The translations under genes and the position numbers were made by a program. Below the pieces are notes generated by a model. The model saw only the letters and a program-made list of their open reading frames with translations. It searched no databases and had not been told where the DNA came from. A stretch of 64,000 nucleotides of DNA. It comes from a virus. Below are positions 48,779-64,000 of the stretch, one piece after another (positions within the stretch are counted from its first letter, which is position 1; every line of letters begins with the position of its first letter). The DNA lies in the IMG/VR virus record IMGVR_UViG_3300045120_000483, positions 32,001 through 96,000 of that record; one strand, written 5' to 3'.

Positions 48779-48932
48779 GAGGGCGTCGTCTTGTCGGTTG
48801 GTTTCTTCCATTGTTACCCAATCGGCGGTCATCCGGCAGAGAGAGGATGATAAATGTAAGGGGACAAAAGGTATTTCTCCGGAGTTGTGTATGTTGAAGT
48901 AAACGGAGAGTGTATAGTACAAACTCCCTTAT

Positions 48933-49007
48933 GCTAGTTTAGCTTAAATGGTAGAGCATCTGATTCGTATCCAGATAGGTTCCTTTTCGATAAGGAAACT
49001 AGCACCA
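48933..49007 (+). tRNA. tRNA-Thr(CGT), atypical T arm
   Basis: Cloverleaf GCTAGTT/AACTAGC, loop TTCGTAT, CCA. Confidence 0.75.
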
Positions 49008-49014
49008 ATTTAAT

Positions 49015-49090
49015 GCCGATTTATCCTTAGTGGTTAAAGGTCTGCCCTTGTAACGCAGGTACGCGGGTTCGATTCCTGCAATCGGCTCCA
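49015..49090 (+). tRNA. tRNA-Thr(TGT)
   Basis: GCCGATT/AATCGGC, loop CTTGTAA, TTCGATT, CCA. Confidence 0.88.
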
Positions 49091-49097
49091 GTTCAAT

Positions 49098-49173
49098 GGG
49101 ATCATAGTTTAGCGGTCAGAATCCCGCCCTTTCAAGGCGTGAGACCGGGGTTCGAATCCCCGTGGTCCTACCA
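49098..49173 (+). tRNA. tRNA-Glu(TTC)
   Basis: Loop CTTTCAA, TTCGAAT, CCA. Confidence 0.9.
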
Positions 49174-49206
49174 TTCGAAGAAATGCATGAAATCATAAAT
49201 ACTTTC

Positions 49207-49569
49207 ATGCGTAATCAAATTAAATTAAAAGAATACAATCGACAACATTATTTGAAAATTCGGGTTTATCGTCGTGATGAAGTATTGGACCGTCAGCGTT
49301 TTATTAGAGGCAGAGTTAGGGAACTTAAAGTTGAACTTGGGTGTTCGCTTTGTGGATACAATAAATGTGCCAGGGCTCTCCAATTTCATCATTTAAGTGG
49401 AAAAGATGAAAATGTAGCAAGAATGGCGGCTCAAGGAAGATCGATGAAGAGAATTCTTGAAGAGATAGATAAGTGTGTTTGTGTATGTGCTAATTGTCAT
49501 GCTGAATTACATGATGAAAAAGAGAAAAATAAAGCTCCGAAAGCTAACTTAGTAGAAGCGCCAGTCTGA
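49207..49569 (+). CDS. HNH homing endonuclease within the tRNA cluster
   Basis: GC..CGY..C..ALQFHH..K..EI.KC...CANCHAE.H; 3' end overlaps tRNA-Phe. Confidence 0.85.
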   Translation: MRNQIKLKEYNRQHYLKIRVYRRDEVLDRQRFIRGRVRELKVELGCSLCGYNKCARALQFHHLSGKDENVARMAAQGRSMKRILEEIDKCVCVCANCHAELHDEKEKNKAPKANLVEAPV

Positions 49570-49609
49570 AGAATTGGATGAGTGGGGGCGGAACCTACAC
49601 GGGGCACCA
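49534..49609 (+). tRNA. tRNA-Phe(GAA), T-loop GGCGGAA
   Basis: Cloverleaf, loop CTGAAGA, CCA. Confidence 0.8.
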
Positions 49610-49613
49610 TTTT

Positions 49614-49707
49614 TGATCGGTAGCTTAAGCAAAGCGTATCTCACCAAAGGCCATACTGTGGTTTTTGGGGAGGTAAGATGGAGGTCCAAGCCCTCCCTGA
49701 TCAGCCA
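49614..49707 (+). ncRNA. tRNA-like RNA with a 17-bp arm in place of the anticodon arm
   Basis: Acceptor TGATCGG/CTGATCA+GCCA, D arm GCTT/AAGC, T arm GGAGG/CCTCC. Confidence 0.7.
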
Positions 49708-49712
49708 ATTTA

Positions 49713-49785
49713 TGTCCGATGTAGCTTAAGCGTAAAGCAGACCTCCAAGGGAGGATCGTTGAGGGTTCAAGCCCCTCCCGGGCAG
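49713..49785 (+). ncRNA. tRNA-like RNA without an anticodon loop or CCA
   Basis: D arm GCTT/AAGC, CCTCC-AAG-GGAGG arm, T arm GAGGG TTCAAGC CCCTC. Confidence 0.55.
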
Positions 49786-49849
49786 AAACAAAACCGTGTA
49801 AGCCGGTGGCAAAGAGCGGGTTATCCCGCCGCTAGCTAAATCATTTTAA

Positions 49850-49923
49850 CGCGGGGTAGAGGAGTAGTTCCTTGCCAGCCTCATAAGCTGGAGACATCGG
49901 TGCAAGTCCGGTCCACGCAACCA
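49850..49923 (+). tRNA. initiator-type tRNA-Met(CAT)
   Basis: C1:A72 mismatch, loop CTCATAA, CCA; lacks the three G-C pairs in the anticodon stem. Confidence 0.85.
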
Positions 49924-49928
49924 TTAAT

Positions 49929-50012
49929 GGGCAAGGCGCGGTCTGGGAACCCAGAGAGTCTGTAAAACTCACGCTTATAGCTAGAGAGGTTCGATTCCTC
50001 TTTTGCCCACCA
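49929..50012 (+). tRNA. tRNA-Tyr(GTA)
   Basis: Loop CTGTAAA, long variable arm, CCA. Confidence 0.85.
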
Positions 50013-50013
50013 T

Positions 50014-50092
50014 TTTCTACTCAGGTTCGAATCCTGACGTTCAAGGACAGTCTATAGGCGAACGAACACTTGCGGAGATCGGTCAGTAGAAA
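50014..50092 (+). ncRNA. permuted tRNA-like RNA candidate (T arm first)
   Basis: TTTCTAC/GTAGAAA stem encloses TCAGG TTCGAAT CCTGA, then CGTTC/GAACG. Confidence 0.5.
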
Positions 50093-50101
50093 TTCATTTA
50101 T

Positions 50102-50178
50102 GGGACTGTAGCTCAATTGGGAGAGCAACGCTTTTGCAAAGCGAAGGTTGTGGGTTCAAGTCCCACCTGTTTCCACCA
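50102..50178 (+). tRNA. tRNA-Ala(TGC), irregular acceptor stem
   Basis: Loop TTTGCAA, G3-U70, CCA. Confidence 0.8.
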
Positions 50179-50182
50179 TTAT

Positions 50183-50243
50183 GGAGGGGTACCGGCCGCC
50201 TCCGGATACGCTGGTCTCAAAGACCGTGAAAAGACCTCCACCA
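50183..50243 (+). ncRNA. CCA-ended mini-RNA, copy 1
   Basis: GGAGG/CCTCC+ACCA with two internal hairpins; homologous to 60553-60608. Confidence 0.65.
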
Positions 50244-50267
50244 AATTCTTATTATGGGAGAAAAGGA

Positions 50268-50711
50268 ATGAACTGGACGGATAATTATCCAGAGTTTACG
50301 GATACAGCTAATTGCTTTATACGGGCAACTAGTATAGCCCTAGAGAAATCATATGAAGACTCTTACAAAGAAGTTTCATTTCTCATTGAAAAGAATAATG
50401 ATCCGCCAGTGAGCCCCAATCAGGGTGTATATCTAGATGTTATGATTAACTACATGGAATCAGTAGGTTGGAAATGGAATGGAGTATCCCTCTACAGACC
50501 ACAACGAAATGATGTTTTAGTGGGGGGTTATCTCAGGGATGTCCCCAAAAAAGGTTGTTTCGTTGTCCTAATTTTTCTTCCTGATTTGAAACAACCGAAA
50601 CAACGTTATGATGGTCATGCCCTTGCTGTAATTGATGGCACTATTCATGAACATTCTGTTTTTAAAAAAGTTTTTGATGAGCACGCCCCTTTGTGGGGAT
50701 ATTTCTCATAG
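50268..50711 (+). CDS. hypothetical protein (possible C39-like Cys/His peptidase fold)
   Basis: NCFIRA.SIAL..Y and GH..AVIDG. Confidence 0.6.
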   Translation: MNWTDNYPEFTDTANCFIRATSIALEKSYEDSYKEVSFLIEKNNDPPVSPNQGVYLDVMINYMESVGWKWNGVSLYRPQRNDVLVGGYLRDVPKKGCFVVLIFLPDLKQPKQRYDGHALAVIDGTIHEHSVFKKVFDEHAPLWGYFS

Positions 50712-50729
50712 CAAAGTTTCCACCATTTC

Positions 50730-50804
50730 GCCTCTGTATTTTTAATGGTAGAAGTCATTCTTGGTACGAATGGAGATGGCGTTCGATTCGCCACTGAGGC
50801 ACCA
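50730..50804 (+). tRNA. tRNA-Thr(GGT)
   Basis: Loop TTGGTAC, TTCGATT, CCA. Confidence 0.85.
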
Positions 50805-50912
50805 TAGAAAAAGGAAAAGTTCAGAAGTAGGCAAGGGGGCTAGCCTCCGGTCGGTACTCTAGACCGGTGACCAACACAAATCGTTGGTCTGATAAATGGC
50901 CCTCAAATTTAA

Positions 50913-50996
50913 GGTGGATGGGGTCCAAGGTGGACACACGGCTTTGAATACCGTCCCTCCGAAAGGATGAGAGTTCGATTCTTTCATCCACCGCCA
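50913..50996 (+). tRNA. tRNA-Ser(TGA)
   Basis: Long variable arm, G73, loop TTTGAAT. Confidence 0.8.
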
Positions 50997-50998
50997 GT

Positions 50999-51115
50999 TT
51001 CTTCGAAGATCACTGTAGTAGGTGTGGGTTCATGTTCCTTCTAGACTATAAGGAGCTAGCCGTACTAACAGGTGTCTAGACCGATGTGGGCGATAATGTT
51101 AACCTTTCGAAGAAT
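50999..51115 (+). ncRNA. unidentified structured RNA between tRNAs
   Basis: TTCTTCGAAG/TTTCGAAGAA closing stem with internal helices. Confidence 0.5.
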
Positions 51116-51121
51116 TCAATT

Positions 51122-51203
51122 GCAGATATGGTGAAATGGAAAACACACTACGCTTAGAACGTAGCGCGAAAGCTTGCGGGTTCAAGTCCTGCTATCTGCA
51201 CCA
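51122..51203 (+). tRNA. tRNA-Leu(TAG)
   Basis: Class II cloverleaf, loop CTTAGAA, CCA. Confidence 0.92.
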
Positions 51204-51232
51204 TAAATACTAAAAAAACAGAGGAAAATGAA

Positions 51233-52078
51233 ATGAAAAAATTGAGAGAAATCCTGAATGAAAAATTTATTAAAGATATGTCCTCTGTGGAACATAAGAG
51301 ACATCGACAATCTGAAGCTGAAGGGAGCCAGTGGCATCAGGATCACCCCGTAAGTCATGAAAATATAATCAATCATTTTAATGCTGCCACTTCGGAGGAG
51401 CATCATAATGGGATGAGTTGGTATAAAGATGCTCATCATACGATGAAGGCTTTAGCTCATGACACCAAAACTCCCCATCATCAGATGGCGGGTCTAATTT
51501 CAAATTATTCGCCCCAGACACATTGGTTTACAAATATCCATACTGCCGCAAAAGTTGCCCGGGAGAAGAAAGCTGTGGGCGGCCCCGGATCAGGAGTTTT
51601 TGCTTCAGGTCAACAAAAACATGCTGCACATAGGATGTTGCAGGGGGAACATTATAATAACGTTCTTGTTGGACATAAGGTGAGACATTTTGCTCATTTA
51701 ATTGAGCATGGGGGCAATGAACATCCCGATCACCCCCATGTTGTGTTGGATCGTCATGCACATTCGGTGGCATCAGGAAGCCGTATTACTGATGCGGCAT
51801 TTAGTCAAGCCGGACTCAAATCCAAGAAAAAATATGCTGATATGAGTAATGCCTATATAAAAGCGGCTCATCATCTATCGGAAATTCACAAACAAACAAT
51901 TCATCCTCATCAAGTTCAGGCTGTAACTTGGCTGGTACGTCAACGGTTGAATGCTCAAGAAGATAAAGGGCAGGCGAAAAACAAAAGTAATAAGGCAAAA
52001 GATACATGGCACAAATATGCGGAGGAACATCATCCAAGTGTGATTGGTCAAGAGCCCGGAACAGGTTATGGCCATTGA
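51233..52078 (+). CDS. late protein with capsid-targeting-like N-terminus; putative HhH-glycosylase-like fold
   Basis: TAAATA at 51204; MKKLREILNE; WY..A, SPQ..W..N, KV..F, V.DRHA, QVQAVTW. Confidence 0.6.
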   Translation: MKKLREILNEKFIKDMSSVEHKRHRQSEAEGSQWHQDHPVSHENIINHFNAATSEEHHNGMSWYKDAHHTMKALAHDTKTPHHQMAGLISNYSPQTHWFTNIHTAAKVAREKKAVGGPGSGVFASGQQKHAAHRMLQGEHYNNVLVGHKVRHFAHLIEHGGNEHPDHPHVVLDRHAHSVASGSRITDAAFSQAGLKSKKKYADMSNAYIKAAHHLSEIHKQTIHPHQVQAVTWLVRQRLNAQEDKGQAKNKSNKAKDTWHKYAEEHHPSVIGQEPGTGYGH

Positions 52079-52087
52079 TTCAACTAA

Positions 52088-52163
52088 GCTTCACTAGCCC
52101 AGCGGTAGAGGCAGCAGATTTAAATCCTGTTAAGGCCGGGTCCGAATCCCGGGTGAAGCACCA
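52088..52163 (+). tRNA. tRNA-Leu(TAA), short variable loop
   Basis: Loop TTTAAAT, A73, CCA. Confidence 0.82.
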
Positions 52164-52169
52164 TTTAAT

Positions 52170-52245
52170 GGCTCTTTAGACAAACCGGCATAGTCGCTTC
52201 CCTCAAAAAGAAGAGTTCTGGATTCGAATTCCAGGAGAGCTACCA
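52170..52245 (+). tRNA. tRNA-Leu(CAA), short variable loop
   Basis: Loop CTCAAAA, CCA. Confidence 0.82.
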
Positions 52246-52254
52246 AAATATCTC

Positions 52255-52283
52255 TTGACATGTTCTGACACTTTGGTTATCAT
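52255..52283 (+). promoter_or_regulatory. sigma70-type promoter
   Basis: TTGACA-17-TATCAT. Confidence 0.65.
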
Positions 52284-52348
52284 ATTGAAAGTGGATGGGA
52301 AGCGCGTTGTGTTTTCGTCTTTCAACAAAAGCGGTCCCGTCCATTCTT

Positions 52349-52434
52349 GTTCTTAATTGTGGAATACCTTGCTGTTCAAGGGCTTATGCAAGGGATAGAC
52401 TTTGTAAGAAGGCGGTATTCCACAGTTAAGAACA
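52349..52434 (+). ncRNA. structured RNA with a 21-bp stem and terminal junction
   Basis: TGTTCTTAATTGTGGAATACC/GGTATTCCACAGTTAAGAACA. Confidence 0.6.
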
Positions 52435-52435
52435 T

Positions 52436-52526
52436 GGTGTTCCTGGCTGGCTTAATCTAAGCTTCCCACAAGTCGCTTAGAACGTTTTGTGGAACGTAAG
52501 GAAGGGTTCGAATCTCTTCGACACCA
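52436..52526 (+). ncRNA. tRNA-like RNA with an elongated arm displaying a Leu(TAG) anticodon loop
   Basis: GGTGTT/GACACC, T arm GAAGGG TTCGAAT CTCTTC, arm ending CG-CTTAGAA-CG. Confidence 0.6.
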
Positions 52527-52606
52527 TCGTAATAAGAACGGGATGATATCTTAACCCGAATAACGGCGAATCCTTCGGAAAAGTCGTTTCGTTCTTTCTT
52601 TTTAAT

Positions 52607-52682
52607 GCCCCTTTAGCTCAGTGACCAGAGCGGTTGTTTTACATACAACGGGTCGGGAGTTTGATTCTCTCAAGGGGTACCA
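52607..52682 (+). tRNA. tRNA-Val(TAC)
   Basis: Loop TTTACAT, CCA. Confidence 0.9.
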
Positions 52683-52687
52683 GAGAT

Positions 52688-52885
52688 AACGGTGTTGTCG
52701 CACCGTAGCCCGGTTTGACGGGCTTAAAGGATAGCAGTAGCGATACTGTCAAAGTAAGGAAGCTTACAGCCTTACACCGGAGCAATCCGGCCCATTCAAG
52801 CAGGTCCGGTTCACCCGAAAGGGCAGTCATACTAGACTGTGGCGGGAAGCAGGACGATGAGGAGACAAGACCCGAAAGGGATAAG
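52688..52885 (+). ncRNA. about 200-nt multi-hairpin ncRNA
   Basis: At least eight hairpins, several with GNRA loops; no credible ORF; between two tRNAs. Confidence 0.55.
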
Positions 52886-52890
52886 AATAT

Positions 52891-52964
52891 AGCCTAGTGC
52901 CGGAATGGTTACGGGACCGCCTGCAAAGCGGGAGACAGGAGTTCGATCCTCCTCTAGGCTTCCA
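52891..52964 (+). tRNA. tRNA-Cys(GCA)
   Basis: Loop CTGCAAA, U73, CCA. Confidence 0.88.
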
Positions 52965-53076
52965 GCACACCGATGAAGATATTCGTAGCGTTGTGGACCC
53001 GTGGCGAACGAATAAAAATAAGGGAGCAAATTTCAGTACGCGACTGACCCACAAGTTAACGGTTTTCCAATAGAAT

Positions 53077-53151
53077 GCATCTTTAGCTCAGAGGAAGAGT
53101 GTCGCATCGACATTGCGAAGGTCCGGATATCGTAATTCCGAAGATGTACCA
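53077..53151 (+). tRNA. tRNA-Val(GAC)
   Basis: Loop TCGACAT, T-loop ATCGTAA, CCA. Confidence 0.82.
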
Positions 53152-53172
53152 CCTTAAACAAAAGGAAACATT

Positions 53173-53322
53173 ATGTTTGAAGCTCTGTTGATGACAATTT
53201 TAATTGCTGTTGTTATTGTGGTTATAGCGGAATGGTTTTCTCCGGATGCCCGTCTTACATGGATTGTTCGTTTGTTGGTTTTTGTTTGGTTGATTTACAA
53301 GCTTCTTCCGTTTTTGAAGTAA
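53173..53322 (+). CDS. small two-TM membrane protein (49 aa)
   Basis: Read by hand; AAGGA RBS. Confidence 0.55.
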   Translation: MFEALLMTILIAVVIVVIAEWFSPDARLTWIVRLLVFVWLIYKLLPFLK

Positions 53323-53329
53323 AGTTAAT

Positions 53330-53408
53330 GTGGGAGTAGGGGAGTCTGGCCGTCCCCTCTTGCCTTGGAAGCAAGAAATCGTGAGTTCGAATCTCACTTC
53401 CCGCACCA
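53330..53408 (+). tRNA. tRNA-Pro(TGG)
   Basis: Loop CTTGGAA, TTCGAAT, CCA. Confidence 0.9.
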
Positions 53409-53422
53409 TTTAGGAGTTGATA

Positions 53423-53611
53423 ATGTTTTGGAAAAGCCTTACACCCCCTGAAGCCGTTGAGTATTATAATCTTCTACAAAAGATTAGCATTTGGTCGGGC
53501 CACTGTGAGACTTGTCGAAAGGCAAAGTCTCCGGTACAAGAAGACTTGCGACCAACGGACCAAGAGTTTATGCGTTGGAATGAACTGTTCTGGAAATTTT
53601 GGACAAAATAA
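53423..53611 (+). CDS. hypothetical protein
   Basis: AGGAG RBS. Confidence 0.5.
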   Translation: MFWKSLTPPEAVEYYNLLQKISIWSGHCETCRKAKSPVQEDLRPTDQEFMRWNELFWKFWTK

Positions 53612-53651
53612 AACATAATTCTAGCTAATCGGAGAAGCGACGTTAGTTTAT

Positions 53652-53728
53652 GGGGGTATAGTTCAAAGGTAGAATAGGCGCTTGATAGGCGTTTGATCGT
53701 TCGGGTTCGATTCCCCGTATCCCTACCA
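53652..53728 (+). tRNA. tRNA-Ile(GAT)
   Basis: Loop TTGATAG, CCA. Confidence 0.85.
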
Positions 53729-53747
53729 GTTTTTTAAAAGCAATCGT

Positions 53748-58329: not shown

Positions 58330-58355
58330 ATTCACTTGTAGTCATACAACACTAT

Positions 58356-59309: not shown

Positions 59310-59629
59310 GCACTCTGAAGGATGTCTATCTAAAAGCGGCGGAATTGATTGAGAAGAATGGCCTCTACACGGCCGGGGGATATGCCAATAAACCTCTTTA
59401 TTGTTGTAAAGAAAATGATTGTGTTTGTATAGCCGGGGCAGTTGTGATTGCTAAGGGGTTGTTGCTTGGTAAAGATGAATTCGATAATTATGCTAAAGAA
59501 GCAACAAAACCTTTGTTTTGTTATTTTGACCCGGATGGTCAATATGATAAACTGTTTGATTGGAATGACAGTCAAGGTACCAAGGAAGCAGCTATAGCAA
59601 TCCTGAAAGAGATTGCCGAAACACTGTGA
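59306..59629 (+). CDS. hypothetical protein (paralog family C)
   Basis: AAELI.KNGL..C.CIAGA..WND. Confidence 0.65.
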   Translation: MSTLKDVYLKAAELIEKNGLYTAGGYANKPLYCCKENDCVCIAGAVVIAKGLLLGKDEFDNYAKEATKPLFCYFDPDGQYDKLFDWNDSQGTKEAAIAILKEIAETL

Positions 59630-59851
59630 GTTTTAGTCCACATGAAGCATTTGCCGCATGGTGGAACGCTCATTCCCATGAGGATCGACAAAGGTTAGTA
59701 ACTGATAATGTACATATTGCTCTTGGAACGTGGGAGAGGATCGAAGGCCGGGATGTTTATATACGACAAATAGGTCAAAGTTACAGAGTTTGCCCGATCA
59801 GTATATTTTCGGAGCCATTAATTGGTGGTCCCGAATCGGGCACCAGTTCAA

Positions 59852-59925
59852 GCGGGAGTAGTTCAATGACAGAACATTGCTTTGCCAAGGCAAATACGGG
59901 GGTTTGATTCCCCCTTTCCGCTCCA
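59852..59925 (+). tRNA. tRNA-Gly(GCC)
   Basis: Loop TTGCCAA, U73, CCA. Confidence 0.9.
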
Positions 59926-59931
59926 GTTTAT

Positions 59932-60018
59932 GGAAATGTCAACTAGCGGGGAGCTAGCACTGTTTGGAAAACAGTTGAGACCGAAAGGTTGAGGGATCGT
60001 TTCCCTGAGTTTCCGCCA
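59932..60018 (+). tRNA. tRNA-Ser(GGA), atypical
   Basis: Loop TTGGAAA, long variable arm, G73. Confidence 0.72.
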
Positions 60019-60027
60019 TTTTAAGTA

Positions 60028-60103
60028 GGGCCTGTAGTGATAGAAGGTAGCATTCCGCACTTGCAATGCGGGGGACACGGGGCAGTACCGTGCTGGTCCA
60101 CCA
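60028..60103 (+). tRNA. tRNA-Ala(TGC), second copy, T-loop GGCAGTA
   Basis: G3-U70, loop CTTGCAA, CCA. Confidence 0.82.
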
Positions 60104-60129
60104 TTTAACATAATGAAAGGAAATACATC

Positions 60130-60597
60130 ATGGAAGCGTCAGAGGTTTTGAAGATTGTTGCTAACGGACTGGCCTCTCAGGGGGGCCCGGCTTATGAAAG
60201 TGGAGCGTGTCTTTATCGGGCTTCGGGAGGTCGAAAGTGTGCGGCCGGATGGATCATTACCGATGAAGAGATTATGAGGGGCGTTCGGAGTATGAATTTA
60301 TCTAGCTTGAAACATGAAGGAACCCTTCCAAAGAGTTGTGAGGAACATTTTAGTCTATTAGAATTATTGCAAGAAGTTCATGATAGTTGTGCTTTGAATT
60401 ATTCATATGTTTCAGTAACAAAACCCGAACCGGATCAATTGGCTATGTGGAAGAATGTCCATGGACCATGCGGTATTGCAACCAAACTGAGAAGGGTTGC
60501 CCGGGAAAATGATCTTGATCCGGAGATTGTGACTGAAGCGTTCAAAAATTATGGAGGGGTCACGGCCGATTCCGATGATGCTAGAAATAGCGAATAA
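60130..60597 (+). CDS. hypothetical protein
   Basis: QG..C.YR..G.KCAAG..I..LQ..HD; 3' end overlaps a mini-RNA. Confidence 0.65.
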   Translation: MEASEVLKIVANGLASQGGPAYESGACLYRASGGRKCAAGWIITDEEIMRGVRSMNLSSLKHEGTLPKSCEEHFSLLELLQEVHDSCALNYSYVSVTKPEPDQLAMWKNVHGPCGIATKLRRVARENDLDPEIVTEAFKNYGGVTADSDDARNSE

Positions 60598-60608
60598 AAC
60601 CTCCGCCA
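60553..60608 (+). ncRNA. CCA-ended mini-RNA, copy 2
   Basis: GGAGG/CCTCC+GCCA; shares GGAGGGGT..CGGCCG..TCCG with 50183-50243. Confidence 0.65.
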
Positions 60609-60617
60609 AATTTTAAT

Positions 60618-60692
60618 GACTTGGTAGCTCAGTGACAGAGCGGGAGTCCGTTAAACTCTTGGTCGGGGGTTTGATTCCCTCCCTTGTCTCCA
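60618..60692 (+). tRNA. tRNA with GTT (Asn) anticodon, C33 and U73 variant
   Basis: Loop CCGTTAA; U-U mismatches in the acceptor stem. Confidence 0.7.
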
Positions 60693-60706
60693 AATTAAAA
60701 ATTTAT

Positions 60707-60787
60707 TCCCACGAAGGCGAAGCAAGGTGCATTCGCGTCCGCTGTTAACGGAAGATTAGGCAGGTTCGATTCCTGCGGTGGGAGCCA
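60707..60787 (+). tRNA. tRNA-Asn(GTT)
   Basis: U1-A72, G73, loop CTGTTAA. Confidence 0.85.
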
Positions 60788-60793
60788 ATTTTT

Positions 60794-60868
60794 GGGGTAT
60801 TCGTCTAGCGGTCAGGATGCTGCTTTCTCAATGCAGTGACAGGGATTCAACTTCCCTATACCCTACCA
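60794..60868 (+). tRNA. tRNA-Glu(CTC)
   Basis: Loop TTCTCAA, CCA. Confidence 0.82.
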
Positions 60869-60874
60869 GTTCAT

Positions 60875-60951
60875 ACTCTAGTAGCTCAGTGGAATAGAGC
60901 GTCACCCTGCGAAGGTGAGGGTCGGAAGTTCGAATCTTCCTTAGAGTGCCA
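60875..60951 (+). tRNA. tRNA-Arg(GCG)
   Basis: Canonical cloverleaf, loop CTGCGAA. Confidence 0.88.
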
Positions 60952-60957
60952 TAGAAA

Positions 60958-60979
60958 AAGGGAGCCGTTAAGCTCCCTT
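60958..60979. terminator. hairpin terminator
   Basis: AAGGGAGC-N6-GCTCCCTT between convergent units, with a T-run on the minus strand. Confidence 0.6.
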
Positions 60980-61003
60980 CCCCAACTCTTATTGAAAAGG
61001 TTA

Positions 61004-61195
61004 TTAACCTTTTACAGATACGTCCAAAGCGTCGGCCGCGTCATGAAGCTTGGTTGTCAGTTCGACAACTGCGGCTTTGTCACCGCCTGCTGCGGCGATC
61101 TGGTCGGCAAGGTCCTTGAACTTTACGACGGCAAGACCGACTTCGGTTACCATACGGTCAACTTCAGTAGATAGGGCATCGAATTCTACGCTCAT
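61004..61195 (-). CDS. late small helical protein
   Basis: TAAATA at about 61250 (minus strand); AAGGA RBS. Confidence 0.6.
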   Translation of the reverse strand: MSVEFDALSTEVDRMVTEVGLAVVKFKDLADQIAAAGGDKAAVVELTTKLHDAADALDVSVKG

Positions 61196-61270
61196 ATTTT
61201 ATATTCCTTCTTTTGTTTGTTGTTGCAACAATAATAACGTCATGTGTACTATTTATCTTTCAAATTTCTT

Positions 61271-61345
61271 GGGGAATTAGCATAACGGCTAGTGCATTCG
61301 GCTCTGACCCGAAAGGTGGGGGATCATTCCCCTCATTCCCTTCCA
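61271..61345 (+). tRNA. tRNA-Gln(CTG)
   Basis: Loop CTCTGAC, T-loop ATCATTC, CCA. Confidence 0.8.
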
Positions 61346-61353
61346 TTTTCTTC

Positions 61354-61383
61354 TTGACAACCCCTCTTTCATTCAATATAATG
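61354..61383 (+). promoter_or_regulatory. consensus sigma70 promoter
   Basis: TTGACA-17-TATAAT. Confidence 0.8.
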
Positions 61384-61421
61384 TGAAAATTGAACATGAC
61401 AACAAAAAGGATATTTTCGTC

Positions 61422-61646
61422 ATGAATGACCGTCCGCAACTTAGTATAAAGCCCCGTAATTGGCCCGAAGCGGTATCTATGGGTAAGGAAAAAAGTTCCA
61501 AGTGTACCAAGCCTTATCGGAATACCGATGGGGGCAAGCTGGGACGTAAGCAGGCCAATTTGAGTCGCCGCCGCAACGACCATGCCGCGACTATTAAGGC
61601 CGCCCGTGATCCTCAGGCATATAAGACACCGGGGAGCATGAAGTAG
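61422..61646 (+). CDS. small basic protein
   Basis: RBS; ends YKTPGSMK. Confidence 0.6.
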   Translation: MNDRPQLSIKPRNWPEAVSMGKEKSSKCTKPYRNTDGGKLGRKQANLSRRRNDHAATIKAARDPQAYKTPGSMK

Positions 61647-61835
61647 ATGATGTCTCCCTATGAGATGAAACATCTTCATGATTTTCGAATTTCCTGGTTC
61701 CGGGTTCTTGTGAATGGGACTAATGAAATTCTTCTGAATCATATGAAACTTCGGGAACCTACCGCTGAAATGGCGGAGTTCAATTTTCGAAGAGAATATC
61801 CGAAAGTTGATGATTATGAACTGGTGGAAATATGA
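61647..61835 (+). CDS. hypothetical protein
   Basis: Coupled ORF. Confidence 0.5.
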   Translation: MMSPYEMKHLHDFRISWFRVLVNGTNEILLNHMKLREPTAEMAEFNFRREYPKVDDYELVEI

Positions 61836-62065
61836 GATATGTAGCCCTTACAAAATGGACCTTTTCTAAAAAGGTCATATGGCGACAATATATTTCCTTT
61901 CATGGTGGGTATACGGAGTATACCTGGATATTCTTGGATCGTTATAAGGAATATAGGGGAGAGTCTTTTCATATTAATGCAGAGGTTTATGTATCGGGAA
62001 GTATTACCCCCGATATTGGTCCGTGGTATGATGCGTTGAAGAGACATCCTTTCACCGTGTTTTAA
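61832..62065 (+). CDS. hypothetical protein
   Basis: ATGA coupling. Confidence 0.5.
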   Translation: MRYVALTKWTFSKKVIWRQYISFHGGYTEYTWIFLDRYKEYRGESFHINAEVYVSGSITPDIGPWYDALKRHPFTVF

Positions 62066-62255
62066 TTTAAATGGAGGAACAACAAATGGACGTAAAGACC
62101 TACTTGTTGCAAGACCGACAATGGCCCCGGGAGTTGCGTATCGCCCATGCTCAATTTCAGTTGAAGAAGGTTACTGTTCCGGAGGAATTTGATTTCTGGA
62201 AGGCCGTTCTGGAGGCAAACGAATCATGAAATCACTTGGTGGAGACAAACGAATC

Positions 62256-62510
62256 ATGAAATCAACATTTGTACAGGCTCAAGAACCGATTAAACCGGAA
62301 TACCCTTGCTTCAAAAGGTTTTCTAGATACATGGATGGGGAATCGGAGGTTAGGCCGGGGGACCAATACATCGTTTTTTTTACTTCTCCGGGAAATGGGG
62401 TAGTAGTTCAGAAGAATGAAGATGTTGTGTTTTATATTGGATATACATCTAATTGTTGGATGGAATCCCGTTTTGATAAGGTTCACGGTGTTATCACTCT
62501 AGAGTTTTAA
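62256..62510 (+). CDS. hypothetical protein (paralog family A)
   Basis: YPC..YIVFFTSP..GVVV..YTS..W..F...G.I.L. Confidence 0.6.
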   Translation: MKSTFVQAQEPIKPEYPCFKRFSRYMDGESEVRPGDQYIVFFTSPGNGVVVQKNEDVVFYIGYTSNCWMESRFDKVHGVITLEF

Positions 62511-62589
62511 ACCCTTGTATGCCGCCACACTTCTAATGTGGAGAAAGCTAACTGGAAACATGCGGGTTCGAATCCTGCCAAGGGTGCCA
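62511..62589 (+). tRNA. tRNA-Arg(TCT) with absent or displaced D arm
   Basis: ACCCTTG/CAAGGGT+GCCA, CCACA CTTCTAA TGTGG, canonical T arm. Confidence 0.72.
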
Positions 62590-62593
62590 CTAA

Positions 62594-62669
62594 ACCCCAG
62601 TACCGGTCTTGTTTCCTAAACAAGATACCGTAAGGGACTATAGGGGTCCGACTCCCCTCTGGGGTTCCA
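62594..62669 (+). tRNA. tRNA-Arg(CCT) with absent or displaced D arm
   Basis: ACCCCAG/CTGGGGT+TCCA, TCTTGT TTCCTAA ACAAGA. Confidence 0.7.
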
Positions 62670-62693
62670 CTGTTAACAAAGGAAAGAGATTTT

Positions 62694-62894
62694 ATGAAAA
62701 AAGGAATCTGTCTTATCTATTTTTTGGGAGTTGTAGTAGTATTCGGCTATTCCTGGAAATATGATTGTGTTCTTGATAGTAGTAGTGTCTTTGTCGTCAG
62801 GAAGAGTGATCAAATTTTTTGTTCGACAGGAAATGCGTTGGCTTGGCCCATTATACTTCCCCTGAAGGCTTCGATTTGGGTTTGGAGTAAGTGA
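62694..62894 (+). CDS. small membrane protein
   Basis: Two hydrophobic segments with a WP motif. Confidence 0.55.
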   Translation: MKKGICLIYFLGVVVVFGYSWKYDCVLDSSSVFVVRKSDQIFCSTGNALAWPIILPLKASIWVWSK

Positions 62895-62896
62895 TC

Positions 62897-63214
62897 ATGG
62901 ATCAAGATATCAAAGACAGGTGGGTTGCCGCCCTCCGTAGTGGAGAATATGCTCAGGGACATACCAGACTCCGGACTGATGATGATATTCCAAAATATTG
63001 TTGTTTGGGGGTCCTTTGTCGGATCGTTGGGCTTCCAATAAGTGAAGATGGGATGTCTATAGACGGGGAGAAGTTTGGGGGTTATTGGGCTCTGGGAAGG
63101 TTTATGTCGAACGAACAGATGACAGTTCTTTGGAACATGAATGACGGATTAGATACTTGTACTAGGGTCCATAGTTTCGAAGAGATTGCGGACTACATAG
63201 AGAAGAATTTATAA
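62897..63214 (+). CDS. hypothetical protein (paralog family B)
   Basis: W..ALRSGEY.QG..CCLGVLC..MND..F.EIADYIE. Confidence 0.7.
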   Translation: MDQDIKDRWVAALRSGEYAQGHTRLRTDDDIPKYCCLGVLCRIVGLPISEDGMSIDGEKFGGYWALGRFMSNEQMTVLWNMNDGLDTCTRVHSFEEIADYIEKNL

Positions 63215-63300
63215 AGAAAGCTAACCAGATGGGTTCTGGACACGCCTGCTAAGCGTTGTGTCCCTGAGGGGGTGTGGGTCGGGACCACAGTTTTCTGCCA
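63215..63300 (+). tRNA. tRNA-Ser(GCT)
   Basis: Loop CTGCTAA, long variable arm, G73. Confidence 0.8.
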
Positions 63301-63317
63301 ACTTAAAGGATAGATAA

Positions 63318-63506
63318 ATGAAATTCAATTATGAACAGTTTGTTGTCGATATCAAAGCAGTCTGCGATCAACATGGTGTTGAGATCGCCGGTACATGTGA
63401 TAGTGAAGGAATCTATGGAGAAATTACCATAGAACGTAAAGGGGATGCTACTTATAAAGGGTGGAATGAACGTAAATTTAATTTTTCTGAAGGAACCACT
63501 CTATAA
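63318..63506 (+). CDS. hypothetical protein
   Basis: AAGGA RBS. Confidence 0.5.
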   Translation: MKFNYEQFVVDIKAVCDQHGVEIAGTCDSEGIYGEITIERKGDATYKGWNERKFNFSEGTTL

Positions 63507-63510
63507 TAAT

Positions 63511-63584
63511 GCGTGGCTGGTATATTGGCAGTGCCTTAGCCTTCCAAGCTTTTGATAGGGGTTCGATTCCCCTGCTACGCTCCA
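63511..63584 (+). tRNA. tRNA-Gly(TCC)
   Basis: Loop CTTCCAA, U73, CCA. Confidence 0.88.
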
Positions 63585-63618
63585 GATAAATACTCTTACA
63601 AATAGAAGGAAATTAAAT

Positions 63619-63789
63619 ATGACTGCGTTTGTTGCTGTTTTGCTTTTGGCCACCGTTCTGGGACATTCCAATGTCTCTCCCCGGGTTCATTCTACATCTG
63701 CCGTTCATGATGTATATGTCGGCGGTAAGTATGTTGGGTCTGATCCGGACGTGAGGGTCCGTAGGGAACTGGCCAGAGATCAATATTAA
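63619..63789 (+). CDS. small secreted protein (56 aa) with a G.DPD..VR..L.RD motif
   Basis: Read by hand; TAAATA, RBS and signal peptide. Confidence 0.55.
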   Translation: MTAFVAVLLLATVLGHSNVSPRVHSTSAVHDVYVGGKYVGSDPDVRVRRELARDQY

Positions 63790-63837
63790 ATAGCCCTGAT
63801 AGACGGCCCCCTAGGTAATAGTCTATCTCTAATTTAA

Positions 63838-63911
63838 TGTGGTTTCGTCCAGTGACAGGGCCGGGGTCTTTGAAGCCTCAGACGTAGGTTTGATTCCTAC
63901 AACCACTGCCA
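63838..63911 (+). tRNA. tRNA-Gln(TTG)
   Basis: U1 mismatch, loop CTTTGAA, G73, CCA. Confidence 0.85.
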
Positions 63912-63918
63912 TTTTAAT

Positions 63919-63986
63919 GCTCTTGTACCGGCGTACAACTTTCTTTCATACGGAAGGTTTGGCGGGATCGACCCCCGCAAGAGCTA
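63919..63986 (+). tRNA. degenerate CAT-anticodon tRNA-like element (reduced D arm, no CCA)
   Basis: GCTCTT/AAGAGC, loop TTCATAC, T arm GCGGG/CCCGC. Confidence 0.4.
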
Positions 63987-64000
63987 CGCTACCGTAGCCC

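What the first reader, a model, noticed from the sequence alone, without database searches (positions are those of the whole stretch)
48900..64000. Candidate new system: non-decoding tRNA mimics plus translation-rescue enzymes
Seen: about 10 tRNA-shaped RNAs sit in tRNA-sized slots among about 30 real tRNAs and cannot decode as encoded. They are permuted folds, a sealed Lys(UUU) tRNA, anticodon-less CCA RNAs and elongated-arm RNAs. Their stems are intact and contain G-U pairs, unlike decaying pseudogenes. Each class keeps one recognition surface (anticodon loop, CCA/acceptor end or elbow) and drops the others. Known: host defences attack these surfaces. Anticodon nucleases include PrrC, RloC, PARIS AriB and VapC; CCA-pyrophosphorylating toxSAS enzymes include CapRel and FaRel2; acetylating or nucleotidylating toxins also act there. 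T4 has CCA-ended RNAs of unknown function (species 1 and 2) in its tRNA cluster. Inference: these RNAs are decoys or sponges that work with the alarmone hydrolase, GGQ factor and ligase-fold enzyme to keep translation running.
Basis: partly seen in the sequence, partly recalled or inferred. Interest (0 to 1): 0.9.

Follow-up and report, generated by a model that had tools for sequence, protein, structure and literature searches.

The report
Phage tRNA array full of odd tRNAs
A T4-like soil phage carries about 26 normal tRNA genes plus about 21 odd tRNA-shaped genes; roughly half of the odd ones look like working tRNAs of unusual, widely conserved shapes (including an apparently undescribed arginine tRNA design), while about nine cannot read codons and have no shown function.

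Summary
The region is the tRNA array of a T4-like soil phage contig: 25 canonical tRNAs in the window (a 26th lies just beyond it) plus about 21 further tRNA-shaped units, mostly CCA-ended and spaced 4-9 nt from their neighbours.

About 12 odd units are probably real decoders in non-canonical classes conserved across many phages:
- a GGCRGWA T-loop class (Phe, Asp, Ala, His), which supplies the three amino acids the canonical set lacks;
- a long-D-arm Asn class (at least 119 IMG/VR contigs);
- an allo-tRNA-like Ile(UAU);
- an apparently undescribed tRNA-Arg class, with no D hairpin and a D-loop-like motif 3' of the anticodon arm. It has 25 members, all with Arg anticodons, and one lies unannotated in Microbacterium phage Pumpernickel.

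About nine units cannot decode as encoded:
- three permuted, YrlA-like modules;
- three or four minis without an anticodon arm;
- two closed-arm paralogs;
- a class-II Lys(UUU) body locked in a 22-bp stem.

Seven or eight of these had no sequence homologue in the loci fetched.

The decoy-plus-rescue-enzyme system has no direct support. Only the alarmone-hydrolase-like gene lies in the array. The GGQ and ATP-grasp genes sit 7-9 kb upstream on the other strand.

The parts
48932..63911 (+). Array of 25 canonical tRNA genes, nearly all with encoded CCA; a 26th (Trp) lies just beyond the window
   Evidence: ARAGORN; Rfam RF00005
49162..49569 (+). HNH homing-endonuclease-like ORF; its 3' end overlaps the start of the Phe unit
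   Evidence: PHROG phrog_2255/3106, E 2e-22
49534..49609 (+). tRNA-Phe(GAA) with A73-CCA and the non-canonical T-loop GGCGGAA; likely a decoder
   Evidence: Rfam 24.3 bits; cloverleaf as minimum-energy fold; 79-83% identical homologues in L099, L113, L116 and L124; class covariation
49614..49707 (+). 94-nt CCA-ended tRNA-like RNA; acceptor, D and T arms are intact but the anticodon loop is replaced by a long closed hairpin; non-decoding
   Evidence: Fold z = -3.4, 1 of 200 shuffles as stable; 7-bp acceptor plus G-CCA; no homologue
49712..49790 (+). Paralog of the previous unit (same D and T arms); central arm ends in a 3-nt loop; no CCA; non-decoding
   Evidence: Folds; partial Rfam tRNA hit, 19.7 bits
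50014..50092 (+). Weak permuted candidate: 8-bp closing stem and a canonical T arm directly after tRNA-Tyr, with no clear D stem
   Evidence: T-arm scan; z = -0.7
52435..52531 (+). 97-nt tRNA-like unit with a canonical T arm; the CCA is paired inside the acceptor stem; ambiguous and possibly degenerate
   Evidence: ARAGORN low-threshold call; fold z = -1.5
53077..53151 (+). tRNA-Val(GAC) with A73-CCA and an AUCGUAA-type T-loop; likely a decoder
   Evidence: Rfam 41 bits; ARAGORN low-threshold call
54149..54706 (+). HD_4 hydrolase, similar to small alarmone hydrolases, Mesh1 and the Rel hydrolase domain; the only 'rescue enzyme' inside the array
   Evidence: Pfam PF13328, E 1.5e-13; PDB matches to Mesh1, Rel and (p)ppApp hydrolase
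55193..55303 (+). Class-II-bodied tRNA-Lys(UUU)-like cloverleaf with no CCA after its 7-bp acceptor stem (a U-CCA follows six stem pairs further out); the acceptor is extended to a 22-bp stem with G-U pairs
   Evidence: z = -6.3, 0 of 200 shuffles; body about 75% like free-ended class-II Lys(UUU) tRNAs in L092 and L110
55289..56131 (-). Cys-rich ORF with a PD-(D/E)xK-like motif, likely a homing endonuclease; its last five codons form the 3' strand of the 22-bp stem
   Evidence: tblastn hits to Lak megaphages, E 8e-17; translation
56276..56339 (+). 64-nt mini: acceptor plus A-CCA, a small hairpin and a long hairpin, with no anticodon loop
   Evidence: z = -3.4, 0 of 200 shuffles; starts 7 nt after the CCA of Lys-CUU
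56345..56420 (+). tRNA-Asp(GUC) with G73-CCA and T-loop GGCAGAA; likely a decoder
   Evidence: Pattern match; fold; class covariation
56426..56482 (+). 57-nt mini: acceptor plus A-CCA with D-like and T-like hairpins and no anticodon arm
   Evidence: Fold; spacing
56488..56556 (+). Permuted tRNA-like four-way junction in the YrlA order: closing stem, 4-nt V, T arm, loop-capped 5-bp acceptor, D-like hairpin
   Evidence: The minimum-energy fold equals the proposed fold (ensemble frequency 0.41, z = -2.0); by eye its V plus T arm is nearly identical to that of tRNA-Met at 49850 (sequences); the same layout occurs in relative L102:11268-11346
56549..56619 (+). Possible fourth mini (acceptor 6 of 7 bp plus C-CCA and one long hairpin); overlaps the previous unit by 8 nt, so the two exclude each other
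   Evidence: Acceptor scan; sequence
56650..56723 (+). Weak permuted candidate with a canonical T-loop and D-loop but only a 3-bp T stem
   Evidence: Sequence; z = -0.5 and the minimum-energy fold differs
56728..56818 (+). 91-nt allo-tRNA-like Ile(UAU): long variable arm, 4-bp D stem with tetraloop, T-loop AUCGUAA, A73-CCA
   Evidence: Fold; architectural homologue at L102rc 2868-2958 with every stem changed compensatorily; family described in PMC5389517
59792..59845 (+). 54-nt mini: perfect 7-bp acceptor plus A-CCA and one long hairpin
   Evidence: z = -4.0, 0 of 200 shuffles; ends 6 nt before tRNA-Gly
59932..60018 (+). Class-II tRNA-Ser(GGA) with G73-CCA and T-loop AUCGUUU; likely a decoder
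   Evidence: ARAGORN low-threshold call; fold
60028..60103 (+). tRNA-Ala(UGC) with G3-U70, A73-CCA and T-loop GGCAGUA; likely a decoder (second Ala copy)
   Evidence: Rfam 30 bits; homologues in L126 and L156 (72%) and L099 (80%)
60707..60787 (+). tRNA-Asn(GUU) with an extended D arm and G73-CCA; likely a decoder
   Evidence: ARAGORN low-threshold call; homologue called tRNA-Asn in L102; the D-arm motif plus Asn loop occurs in at least 119 IMG/VR contigs
62511..62589 (+). D-arm-swapped tRNA-Arg(UCU)
   Evidence: Rfam 37.7 bits; class alignment A2 with 99.6% of cells paired and 14 of 16 pairs compensatory
62594..62669 (+). D-arm-swapped tRNA-Arg(CCU)
   Evidence: Descriptor match; alignment A2
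63215..63300 (+). Class-II tRNA-Ser(GCU)-like unit with G73-CCA and T-loop GUCGGGA; missed by all finders
   Evidence: Acceptor scan; sequence; cloverleaf read by hand
63919..63985 (+). CAU-anticodon tRNA-like unit with a small D arm and no encoded CCA
   Evidence: Fold and L102 homologue at 9815-9885, which ARAGORN calls tRNA-Met
63988..64000 (+). Start of tRNA-His(GUG), which runs to 64061 beyond the window: no G-1, A73, T-loop GGCGGUA; the (8/4)-type phage tRNA-His
   Evidence: Rfam 43.7 bits; 93-94% identical copy in L102; PMC5389517
41258..41680 (-). Stand-alone RF-1/GGQ domain protein (140 aa), outside the finding's coordinates
   Evidence: Pfam PF00472, E 1.5e-15; PDB matches to RF1, RF2 and PrfH
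40063..40896 (-).
   Evidence: Pfam PF18299 and PF14243

Best explanation
This is the tRNA gene array of a T4-like soil phage, and it is unusually rich in structurally non-canonical tRNAs.

Likely decoders (about 12 of the roughly 21 odd units). They belong to shape classes conserved in many unrelated large phages:
- a class with T-loop GGCRGWA and an invariant AG in the D-loop (here Phe, Asp, Ala and His);
- a class with an AUCGUWW-type T-loop (Val GAC, Ser GGA, allo-tRNA-like Ile UAU);
- an extended-D-arm Asn;
- a tRNA-Arg design with no D hairpin. The anticodon arm sits inside a 2-4-bp D-stem remnant, and a D-loop-like UAAYNGGA strand follows it.

Together with the canonical genes these give the phage tRNAs for all 20 amino acids. 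Why the shapes diverge is inferred, not shown. The best guess is escape from host enzymes or defence nucleases that read the tRNA body, in line with published phage tRNAs that resist anticodon nucleases.

Units that cannot decode as encoded (about nine): permuted YrlA-like modules, CCA-ended minis without an anticodon arm, two closed-arm paralogs and the stem-locked class-II Lys(UUU). They are co-phased with the tRNAs, so they are probably cut out by RNase P and 3' processing as small tRNA-like RNAs. Their function is unknown. The permuted ones most resemble the tRNA-like domain of bacterial and phage Y RNAs.
For: Phage type. The DNA polymerase, UvsY, gp46/47-like proteins and helicases indicate a T4-like phage. 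The source is a soil metagenome.

Complete set. The canonical set lacks Phe, Asp and His. Each is supplied exactly once by a GGCRGWA-loop unit.

Identity elements, read directly from the sequences. Discriminators fit the anticodons: Phe A73, Asp G73, Val A73, Ile A73, Asn G73, Ser G73 (twice), and Ala A73 together with G3-U70.

GGCRGWA class.
- An IMG/VR pattern scan gave 35 hits, almost all folding as tRNA-His or tRNA-Phe.
- Across all fetched loci there are 34 distinct members: His 19, Phe 8, Asp 2, Ala at least 1, Gln 1, and three without an automatic anticodon call, two of which read by eye as Lys.
- 16 of 17 consensus pairs show compensatory change, and the loop is invariant.

Arg class.
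- 17 members in alignment A2 plus 8 more in MAG contigs that carry 0-18 ARAGORN tRNAs per 8-kb locus (seven have 7 or more). All have Arg anticodons: ACG, UCG, UCU or CCU.
- 99.6% of cells are paired, 14 of 16 pairs are compensatory, and the covariation score is 0.883 against 0.257 in shuffles, 0 of 500.
- The linker/pre-motif helix is supported by a permutation test, p about 0.009.
- One member lies unannotated in Microbacterium phage Pumpernickel.

Other classes.
- The Asn D-arm motif occurs in at least 119 IMG/VR contigs.
- The syntenic relative L102 has homologues of His, Asn, Arg, Ile(UAU) and CAU with covarying stems.
- (8/4) tRNA-His without G-1 and allo-tRNAs in phage clusters are published (PMC5389517).

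Non-decoders.
- Spacing of 4-9 nt in tandem runs.
- Fold z-scores of -3.4 to -6.3 for four of them.
- Acceptor-plus-CCA enrichment of 27 against about 3 expected.
- The YrlA layout of T arm, capped acceptor, then D arm is described in PMC4201824. Pumpernickel has such a module 2.6 kb from a TROVE/Ro60 gene.
Against: - No expression, aminoacylation or processing data exist. No RNA sequencing run holds this DNA, so 'decoder' rests on conservation and identity elements only.
- Allo-tRNA(UAU)-type RNAs may not be used in translation, according to PMC5389517.
- The stem-locked Lys(UUU) could still mature into a working tRNA by RNase III and P cleavage and CCA addition, which would move it to the decoder group.
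- Seven or eight non-decoding units have no sequence homologue in L102 or in about 240 other phage loci. The stem-locked Lys body is the exception. The homologue-less units may be remnants rather than functional RNAs.
- The D-stem remnant of the Arg class is short (2-4 bp) and its support is modest.
- The nuclease-escape rationale is untested.
Confidence: 0.6

Rival explanations
1. First reader's model. The non-decoding units are decoys or sponges. Each displays one tRNA surface (anticodon loop, CCA end or elbow) to soak up host tRNA-targeting toxins. They work together with the alarmone-hydrolase-like enzyme, the GGQ factor and a ligase-fold enzyme to keep translation running.
For: - About nine units keep CCA/acceptor or elbow features without a usable anticodon loop, and they are phased with real tRNAs.
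- The stem-locked unit displays a Lys(UUU) loop. Lys(UUU) is the target of PrrC and PARIS AriB (PMC11464382, listed).
- An HD_4 hydrolase of the type that reverses toxSAS action lies inside the array. The toxSAS link is from my own knowledge of that literature.
- Phage tRNAs are known counter-defences (PMC10264068, PMC11555353).
Against: - There is no functional or expression evidence.
- Published cases work by supplying cleavage-resistant functional tRNAs, not decoys.
- The units show no sequence-level conservation in the relative L102 or in other arrays.
- The GGQ and ATP-grasp genes are on the other strand, 7-9 kb upstream, in the replication and recombination module.
- Several claimed mimics are conserved decoders.
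Confidence: 0.12
2. The non-decoding units are evolutionary debris. They would be decaying duplicates, deletion derivatives and junctions of tandem tRNA copies, produced by the fast, endonuclease-driven turnover of the array, with no function of their own.
For: - Two homing-endonuclease-like genes sit in the array, HNH at 49162-49569 and a PD-(D/E)xK-like ORF at 55289-56131. In the relative L102, HNH-like ORFs occupy the intervals that hold the minis and permuted units here (the HNH motifs were read by eye).
- By eye, the V plus T arm of the 56488-56556 unit is nearly identical to that of tRNA-Met (sequences). A permuted unit is what the junction of two tandem copies looks like (caveat in PMC4201824).
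- The units have no sequence homologues.
- 50014-50092, 56650-56723 and 52435-52531 fold poorly.
Against: - Acceptor stems of 59792-59845, 49614-49707 and 55193-55303 are perfect, with NCCA kept, and their stability is far above shuffles (z -3.4 to -6.3). Random decay should break stems.
- The 22-bp stem has G-U pairs that work only in the + strand RNA.
- The tight 4-9 nt phasing is kept.
- The same permuted layout recurs in L102 and other arrays with unrelated sequence.
Confidence: 0.25
3. The permuted modules are Y RNAs of the YrlA type. They would tether a Ro60/Rsr protein, phage- or host-encoded, to a nuclease for decay or quality control of structured RNA during infection.
For: - The order of closing stem, V, T arm, capped acceptor and D arm equals the YrlA tRNA-like domain (PMC4201824).
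- YrlA is reported in phages.
- Microbacterium phage Pumpernickel has such a module 2.6 kb upstream of a TROVE gene and next to its tRNA array and an RtcB ligase.
Against: - No Rfam Y RNA hit was found, even at E of 10 or less.
- No GNCGAA-type Ro-binding stem flanks the units (sequence).
- No TROVE gene lies in the 105 kb held, although the contig is only 59% complete.
- Two complete phage genomes with similar modules lack TROVE.
Confidence: 0.15
4. The tRNA-like non-decoders act as processing punctuation. As RNase P and RNase Z substrates they would cut the long array transcript and release flanking tRNAs and small mRNAs, as tRNAs do in mitochondrial transcripts.
For: - Acceptor stem plus T-arm-like hairpin plus NCCA is the minimal RNase P and CCA-enzyme substrate (established knowledge).
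- The units abut tRNAs and small ORFs at regular short spacers.
Against: - Neighbouring canonical tRNAs would already provide the cuts.
- The permuted and stem-locked units have no free acceptor end.
- No data bear on this.
Confidence: 0.08

Closest known systems
(8/4) tRNA-His and allo-tRNAs of phage and soil-bacterial tRNA clusters (Mukai et al. 2017, PMC5389517)
   Same: The tRNA-His here lacks G-1, has A73 and can be drawn 8/4. The 91-nt UAU unit has a long variable arm and a D stem with a tetraloop, and UAU is a predominant allo-tRNA anticodon. Both occur in phage tRNA clusters and in soil.
   Different: The GGCRGWA T-loop shared by Phe, Asp, Ala, Lys and Gln members is not mentioned in the text I could search ('T-loop' has 0 occurrences). 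The UAU unit here has A73, not the G73 or U73 of Ser identity, and it also fits a 7/5 drawing.
YrlA Y RNAs (Chen et al. 2014, PMC4201824)
   Same: The topology is permuted in the same way: T arm, then a loop-capped acceptor-like stem, then a D arm, all closed by a stem in place of the anticodon arm. YrlA is found in phages near tRNA genes.
   Different: Here there is no Ro-binding stem motif, no Rfam hit and no Ro60 gene in the sequence held. The capped stem is 5 bp.
D-armless mitochondrial tRNA-Ser(AGY) (reviewed in PMC7609411)
   Same: The Arg class has no D hairpin between the acceptor and the anticodon arm.
   Different: The Arg class keeps a canonical T arm and a GG-containing D-loop-like strand, moved to the 3' side of the anticodon arm, with a covarying 2-4-bp D-stem remnant. 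It occurs in phages, not organelles, and always has Arg anticodons.
Nuclease-resistant phage tRNAs (PMC10264068, PMC11464382, PMC11555353)
   Same: These are phage-encoded tRNAs that differ from host tRNAs and restore translation under tRNA-targeting defence. They offer a rationale for divergent tRNA bodies and for a Lys(UUU) variant.
   Different: The published cases change the anticodon loop or stem of otherwise canonical, functional tRNAs. No resistance has been tested here, and the changes are in the elbow and D arm.
T4 stable RNAs species 1 and 2 in the T4 tRNA cluster (from my own knowledge, not checked here)
   Same: They are small CCA-ended non-tRNA RNAs co-transcribed with phage tRNAs, of unknown function.

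Membership tests
tRNA (Rfam RF00005) | Score at or above the gathering threshold of 29 bits | tested here: met
   Met for 53077 (41), 62511 (37.7), 60028 (30), 55209 (37.8) and His (43.7). Below threshold or no hit for 49534 (24.3), 56345, 56728, 59932, 60707, 62594 and 63215.
tRNA (functional decoder) | 7-nt anticodon loop with U33 and purine 37, plus a discriminator or identity pair that fits the anticodon | tested here: met
   Read from the sequences: Phe A73, Asp G73, Ala A73 plus G3-U70, Val A73, Ile A73, Asn G73, Ser G73 (twice), Arg with C35. Not met for 49614, 49712, 56276, 56426, 56488 and 59792, which have no 7-nt loop.
tRNA (functional decoder) | Aminoacylation and use on the ribosome | not testable with these tools
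   No RNA run holds the sequence.
YrlA Y RNA | Order of T arm, capped acceptor-like stem-loop and D arm inside a closing stem | tested here: met
   The minimum-energy fold of 56488-56556 shows it. It is weak for 50014-50092 and 56650-56723.
YrlA Y RNA | Ro-binding stem with a GNCGAA-type motif | tested here: not met
   No such motif flanks the units (sequence).
YrlA Y RNA | Encoded next to a Ro60/Rsr (TROVE) gene | tested here: inconclusive
   No TROVE gene in the 104,881 bp held, but the contig is only 59% complete.
YrlA Y RNA | Match to an Rfam Y RNA model | tested here: not met
   No hit at E of 10 or less.
allo-tRNA (PMC5389517) | Long variable arm, and a long D stem with a tetraloop | tested here: met
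   56728-56818 has a 5-bp variable hairpin and a 4-bp D stem with a 4-nt loop.
allo-tRNA (PMC5389517) | 8/4 or 9/3 acceptor/T branch | tested here: inconclusive
   The copy here fits 7/5, because the 8th pair would be A-G. The L102 homologue fits 8/4 perfectly.
allo-tRNA (PMC5389517) | G73 or U73 (Ser identity) | tested here: not met
   Both the copy here and the L102 copy have A73.
(8/4) phage tRNA-His | No G-1, with A73 or U73 | tested here: met
   The base before 63988 is C, and the 3' end is A-CCA.
Circularly permuted tRNA genes (algal/archaeal type) | Both halves rejoin into a full tRNA with an anticodon loop | tested here: not met
   The closing stem of 56488-56556 has no loop halves, and the capped stem is 5 bp, not 7.
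Small alarmone hydrolase (RSH hydrolase fold) | HD_4 domain with similarity to Mesh1, SAH and Rel hydrolase | tested here: met
   The substrate (alarmone or tRNA 3' pyrophosphate) is not testable here.

The most novel reading that the evidence does not exclude
This phage lineage, and many other large phages, would run a parallel set of re-engineered tRNAs that the ribosome and synthetases still accept but that host tRNA-targeting defences no longer recognise. The set would include the D-arm-swapped Arg, the GGCRGWA elbow and the extended-D-arm Asn. The accompanying non-decoding units (YrlA-like modules, CCA minis, the stem-locked Lys-UUU) would act as decoys or sponges for the same defences, aided by the in-array alarmone-hydrolase-like enzyme.
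Probability: 0.15. Interest if true: 0.9.

Novelty: new variant of a known kind. Interest (0 to 1): 0.68.

Why it matters
- tRNA finders and GenBank annotation miss many of these genes. One example is the Arg unit in a cultured Microbacterium phage. Phage tRNA repertoires and codon-supply analyses are therefore undercounted.
- The D-arm-swapped tRNA-Arg, if it is charged and decodes, would be a new natural solution to the L-shape outside organelles. It is directly testable with a cultured phage.
- The conserved GGCRGWA elbow raises the question of which host enzyme or nuclease it avoids.
- The non-decoding units give concrete candidates for phage Y-RNA-like or decoy RNAs. At present they are only candidates.

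Tried and rejected
Contigs of the closest protein relatives (P0001 at 93% identity, P0002, P0006 and others) could not be fetched.
- Single-protein searches of IMG/VR with the DUF7178 protein and the DNA polymerase found nothing.
- Profile-based searches for DUF7178 in IMG/VR and JGI metagenomes gave 90 loci. The gene is not syntenic with tRNAs, so these loci were useless for the array.
- blastn against cultured phages found only scattered canonical tRNA matches.
- Sequencing runs: one DNA run, the probable source, and no RNA holder listed.
- The earlier-findings look-up found no look-alike windows in other genomes.
- Rfam at E of 10 or less on 56270-56840 gave nothing relevant.
- An IMG/VR pattern for the 49614/49712 paralog pair gave one chance hit in coding DNA.
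- A count of short CCA-ended units near tRNAs in other arrays was not enriched over the opposite strand, 41 against 50. A few recurrent families do exist, such as a 57-nt unit in L175, L180, L225 and L231.
- A descriptor for tRNAs with 3-5-nt anticodon loops was uninformative, because canonical tRNAs with 31-39 and 32-38 complementarity match it.
- The permuted-module descriptor is enriched on the tRNA strand, 43 against 4. It also matches junctions of adjacent or tandem tRNAs, so the count is an upper bound.
- The reading that 49614-49707 holds a spliceable intron was rejected. A 22-nt insert has no bacterial splicing route, and the loop lacks U33.

Full report
**What the region is.** The window is bases 32001-96000 of a 104,881-bp IMG/VR viral contig that CheckV rates 59% complete. 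It comes from a soil metagenome. One DNA run holds it and no RNA run does. The rest of the window encodes a T4-type DNA polymerase (39% identity to cyanomyovirus gp43), gp46/47-like nuclease subunits, helicases, a primase, UvsY, ribonucleotide reductase and thymidylate synthase. This is therefore a distant T4-like phage. No cultured phage is close at the DNA level.

**Check of the observation.**
- ARAGORN finds 25 tRNAs on the + strand between 48932 and 63911, and a 26th (Trp) just past the window.
- Rfam adds matches at 53077, 62511, 60028 and 49534, and a His tRNA at 63988-64061.
- A scan for a 7-bp acceptor helix followed by N-CCA gives 27 hits on the + strand of the array. The - strand gives 7, and shuffles give 2.6 +/- 1.6.
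- A T-arm scan finds 11 extra perfect T-arm hairpins outside the called tRNAs.
- When all units are ordered, the odd ones sit in tandem runs with canonical tRNAs at 4-9 nt spacers. One run is Lys-CUU, 56276, 56345, 56426, 56488. Another is 59792, Gly, 59932, 60028.
- The extra tRNA-shaped units are therefore real and non-random. I count about 21 of them.

**Most units with an anticodon loop look like real tRNAs.**
- The canonical set lacks Phe, Asp and His.
- Exactly these three are supplied by 49534-49609 (GAA), 56345-56420 (GUC) and 63988-64061 (GUG). With 60028-60103 (UGC) they share an unusual T-loop, GGCRGWA.
- Their discriminators fit their anticodons: Phe A73, Asp G73, and Ala A73 together with a G3-U70 pair.
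- The same fit holds for Val-GAC (53077), Ser-GGA (59932), Ser-GCU (63215), Asn (60707) and Ile-UAU (56728). All of this is read from the sequences.
- An IMG/VR scan for an anticodon loop, this T arm and CCA returned 35 loci, almost all folding as tRNA-His or tRNA-Phe.
- In all fetched loci there are 34 distinct members: His 19, Phe 8, Asp 2, Ala at least 1, Gln 1, and three without an automatic anticodon call, two of which read by eye as Lys.
- In a 28-sequence alignment, 16 of 17 consensus pairs show compensatory changes. The T-loop and an AG in the D-loop are invariant.
- None occurs in 2 Mb of unrelated phage loci.
- Part of this is published. Mukai et al. described (8/4) tRNA-His lacking G-1, with A73, in phage tRNA clusters. 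They also described allo-tRNAs and soil 'polycistrons of irregular tRNAs' (PMC5389517).

**A syntenic relative.** L102 (IMG/VR contig of 19,372 bp) shares the order Lys-CUU, Asp, Ile-UAU and, further on, Gly-UCC, Gln-UUG, CAU, His, Trp.
- Its 91-nt Ile(UAU) unit has the same architecture as 56728-56818, with every stem changed compensatorily. It fits an 8/4 drawing.
- Its Asn with an extended D arm matches 60707-60787.
- These 'elongated-arm' units are therefore conserved tRNAs, not mimics.

**A tRNA-Arg class that appears undescribed.**
- 62511-62589 (UCU) and 62594-62669 (CCU) have a 7-bp acceptor, then UA and a 5-6-nt linker. The anticodon arm follows directly.
- After the arm come about 8 nt, a D-loop-like UAAYNGGA strand, about 5 nt and a canonical T arm.
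- A descriptor search found 17 distinct members. A pattern scan of GTDB genomes found 8 more in MAG contigs that carry 0-18 ARAGORN tRNAs per 8-kb locus; seven of them have 7 or more.
- Every member has an Arg anticodon: ACG, UCG, UCU or CCU.
- On alignment A2, 99.6% of cells pair and 14 of 16 pairs have compensatory changes. The covariation score is 0.883 against 0.257 in shuffles, 0 of 500.
- The linker pairs over 2-4 bp with the bases just 5' of the motif, and the pairs covary (for example ACC/GGU, GCC/GGC, CGA/UCG). A permutation test gives p of about 0.009.
- The anticodon arm is thus nested in a D-stem remnant, and the D-loop has moved to the variable-loop position.
- One member lies unannotated between two CDS in cultured Microbacterium phage Pumpernickel.
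- ARAGORN misses both copies here, and Rfam catches only one.
- A 2020 review of non-canonical tRNAs does not mention phages ('phage' has 0 occurrences), and its passages on missing D arms concern organellar tRNAs. My library searches found no description.

**Units that cannot decode as encoded.**
1. Permuted modules.
   - 56488-56556 folds, as its minimum-energy structure, into a closing stem, a 4-nt V, a T arm, a loop-capped 5-bp stem and a D-like hairpin (z = -2.0). By eye its V plus T arm is nearly identical to that of tRNA-Met at 49850 (sequences).
   - 50014-50092 and 56650-56723 are weaker.
   - The order equals the tRNA-like domain of YrlA Y RNAs (PMC4201824).
   - L102 has a module of the same layout with unrelated sequence. 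A descriptor finds 43 on the tRNA strand against 4 on the other strand in array-bearing loci, although tRNA junctions inflate this count.
   - In Pumpernickel such a module lies 2.6 kb from a TROVE/Ro60 gene. Two complete phage genomes with modules lack TROVE, and so does the contig held here.
   - No Rfam Y RNA hit was found.
2. Minis without an anticodon arm: 56276-56339 (z = -3.4), 56426-56482, 59792-59845 (z = -4.0) and possibly 56549-56619.
3. Closed-arm paralogs: 49614-49707 (z = -3.4) and 49712-49790. They share D and T arms, but the central arm is closed.
4. The stem-locked Lys(UUU).
   - 55193-55303 is a class-II-bodied Lys(UUU) cloverleaf whose acceptor continues into a 22-bp stem (z = -6.3).
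   - Its 3' strand is the end of a minus-strand endonuclease-like ORF with a PD-(D/E)xK-like motif.
   - Similar class-II Lys(UUU) tRNAs with free A-CCA ends exist in jumbo-phage contigs.
   - The body is therefore a known phage tRNA type. The 22-bp stem could equally be an RNase III processing site or a terminator.
5. 52435-52531 is ambiguous.

Apart from the Lys body, none of these units has a sequence homologue in L102 or in about 240 other loci. In L102, HNH-like ORFs occupy the corresponding intervals (the HNH motifs were read by eye).

**The enzymes.**
- 54149-54706 is an HD_4 hydrolase related to Mesh1, small alarmone hydrolases and the Rel hydrolase domain. It lies inside the array.
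- The GGQ protein is a 140-aa stand-alone RF-1 domain at 41258-41680 on the - strand.
- The ATP-grasp gene is at 40063-40896 on the - strand.
- A DUF6267 plus cytidylyltransferase-like fusion is at 16395-18230.
- Apart from the HD gene, these genes lie 7 kb or more upstream on the other strand, among replication and recombination genes. Genomic linkage gives no reason to treat them as one system with the RNAs.

**Verdict.**
- Roughly half of the odd units are best explained as decoding tRNAs of conserved non-canonical shapes. Some of these shapes are published and one appears new.
- The remainder are tRNA-like RNAs or remnants of unknown function. The closest known analogue of the permuted ones is YrlA.
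- The decoy-and-rescue system remains an untested idea. I put it at about 0.12.
- No expression or charging data exist, so all functional statements are inference from conservation, covariation, identity elements and phasing.

Noticed in passing
window 51233-52078: A DUF7178 protein sits in the middle of the array. Its homologues are common in soil phages and in Lentzea and Umezawaea (actinobacteria), but they are not next to tRNAs elsewhere, so the gene is a mobile passenger rather than an array component.
   Followed up: partly
window 63987-64000 and beyond: The tRNA-His has no G-1 and has A73. Per PMC5389517 this is typical of a group of alphaproteobacteria and their phages, which may hint at the host.
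   Followed up: no
window 45321-45971: An ORF matches the S-adenosylmethionine lyase family (Pfam PF23780, E 5e-10), a possible anti-restriction function just upstream of the array.
   Followed up: no
window 58944-59309 and 59270-59629: Two adjacent, overlapping DUF6197 paralogs lie inside the array.
   Followed up: no
L244 (NC_073468.1, Microbacterium phage Pumpernickel) 1-234, 2471-2552 and 4251-4341; TROVE gene at record 104821-105804: This cultured phage has an RtcB-like ligase, a homing endonuclease, tRNAs, an unannotated Arg-class tRNA, an unannotated permuted tRNA-like module and a Ro60/TROVE gene within about 8 kb. It is a ready experimental system.
   Followed up: partly
L175:7308-7364, L180:4911-4967, L225:12872-12928, L231:5180-5236: An identical 57-nt CCA-ended unit with acceptor, a D-arm-extension motif and a T arm, but no anticodon arm, recurs in four other phage array loci. 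This suggests that minis without an anticodon arm are not unique to this phage.
   Followed up: no
L143:2834-2898, L232:2163-2228, L204:1587-1652, L129:5778-5844: These are 65-67-nt units ending in U-CCA, with an acceptor, a single-stranded linker in place of the D arm, a central hairpin showing UCC or CCC, and a T arm. They may be D-armless tRNA-Gly-like RNAs in other phage arrays.
   Followed up: no
L168:4041-4439: A phage contig carrying the extended-D-arm Asn tRNA also encodes a tmRNA (Rfam 117-118 bits).
   Followed up: no
window 16395-18230: A 611-aa fusion of DUF6267 (E 2e-86) with a cytidylyltransferase-like domain.
   Followed up: partly
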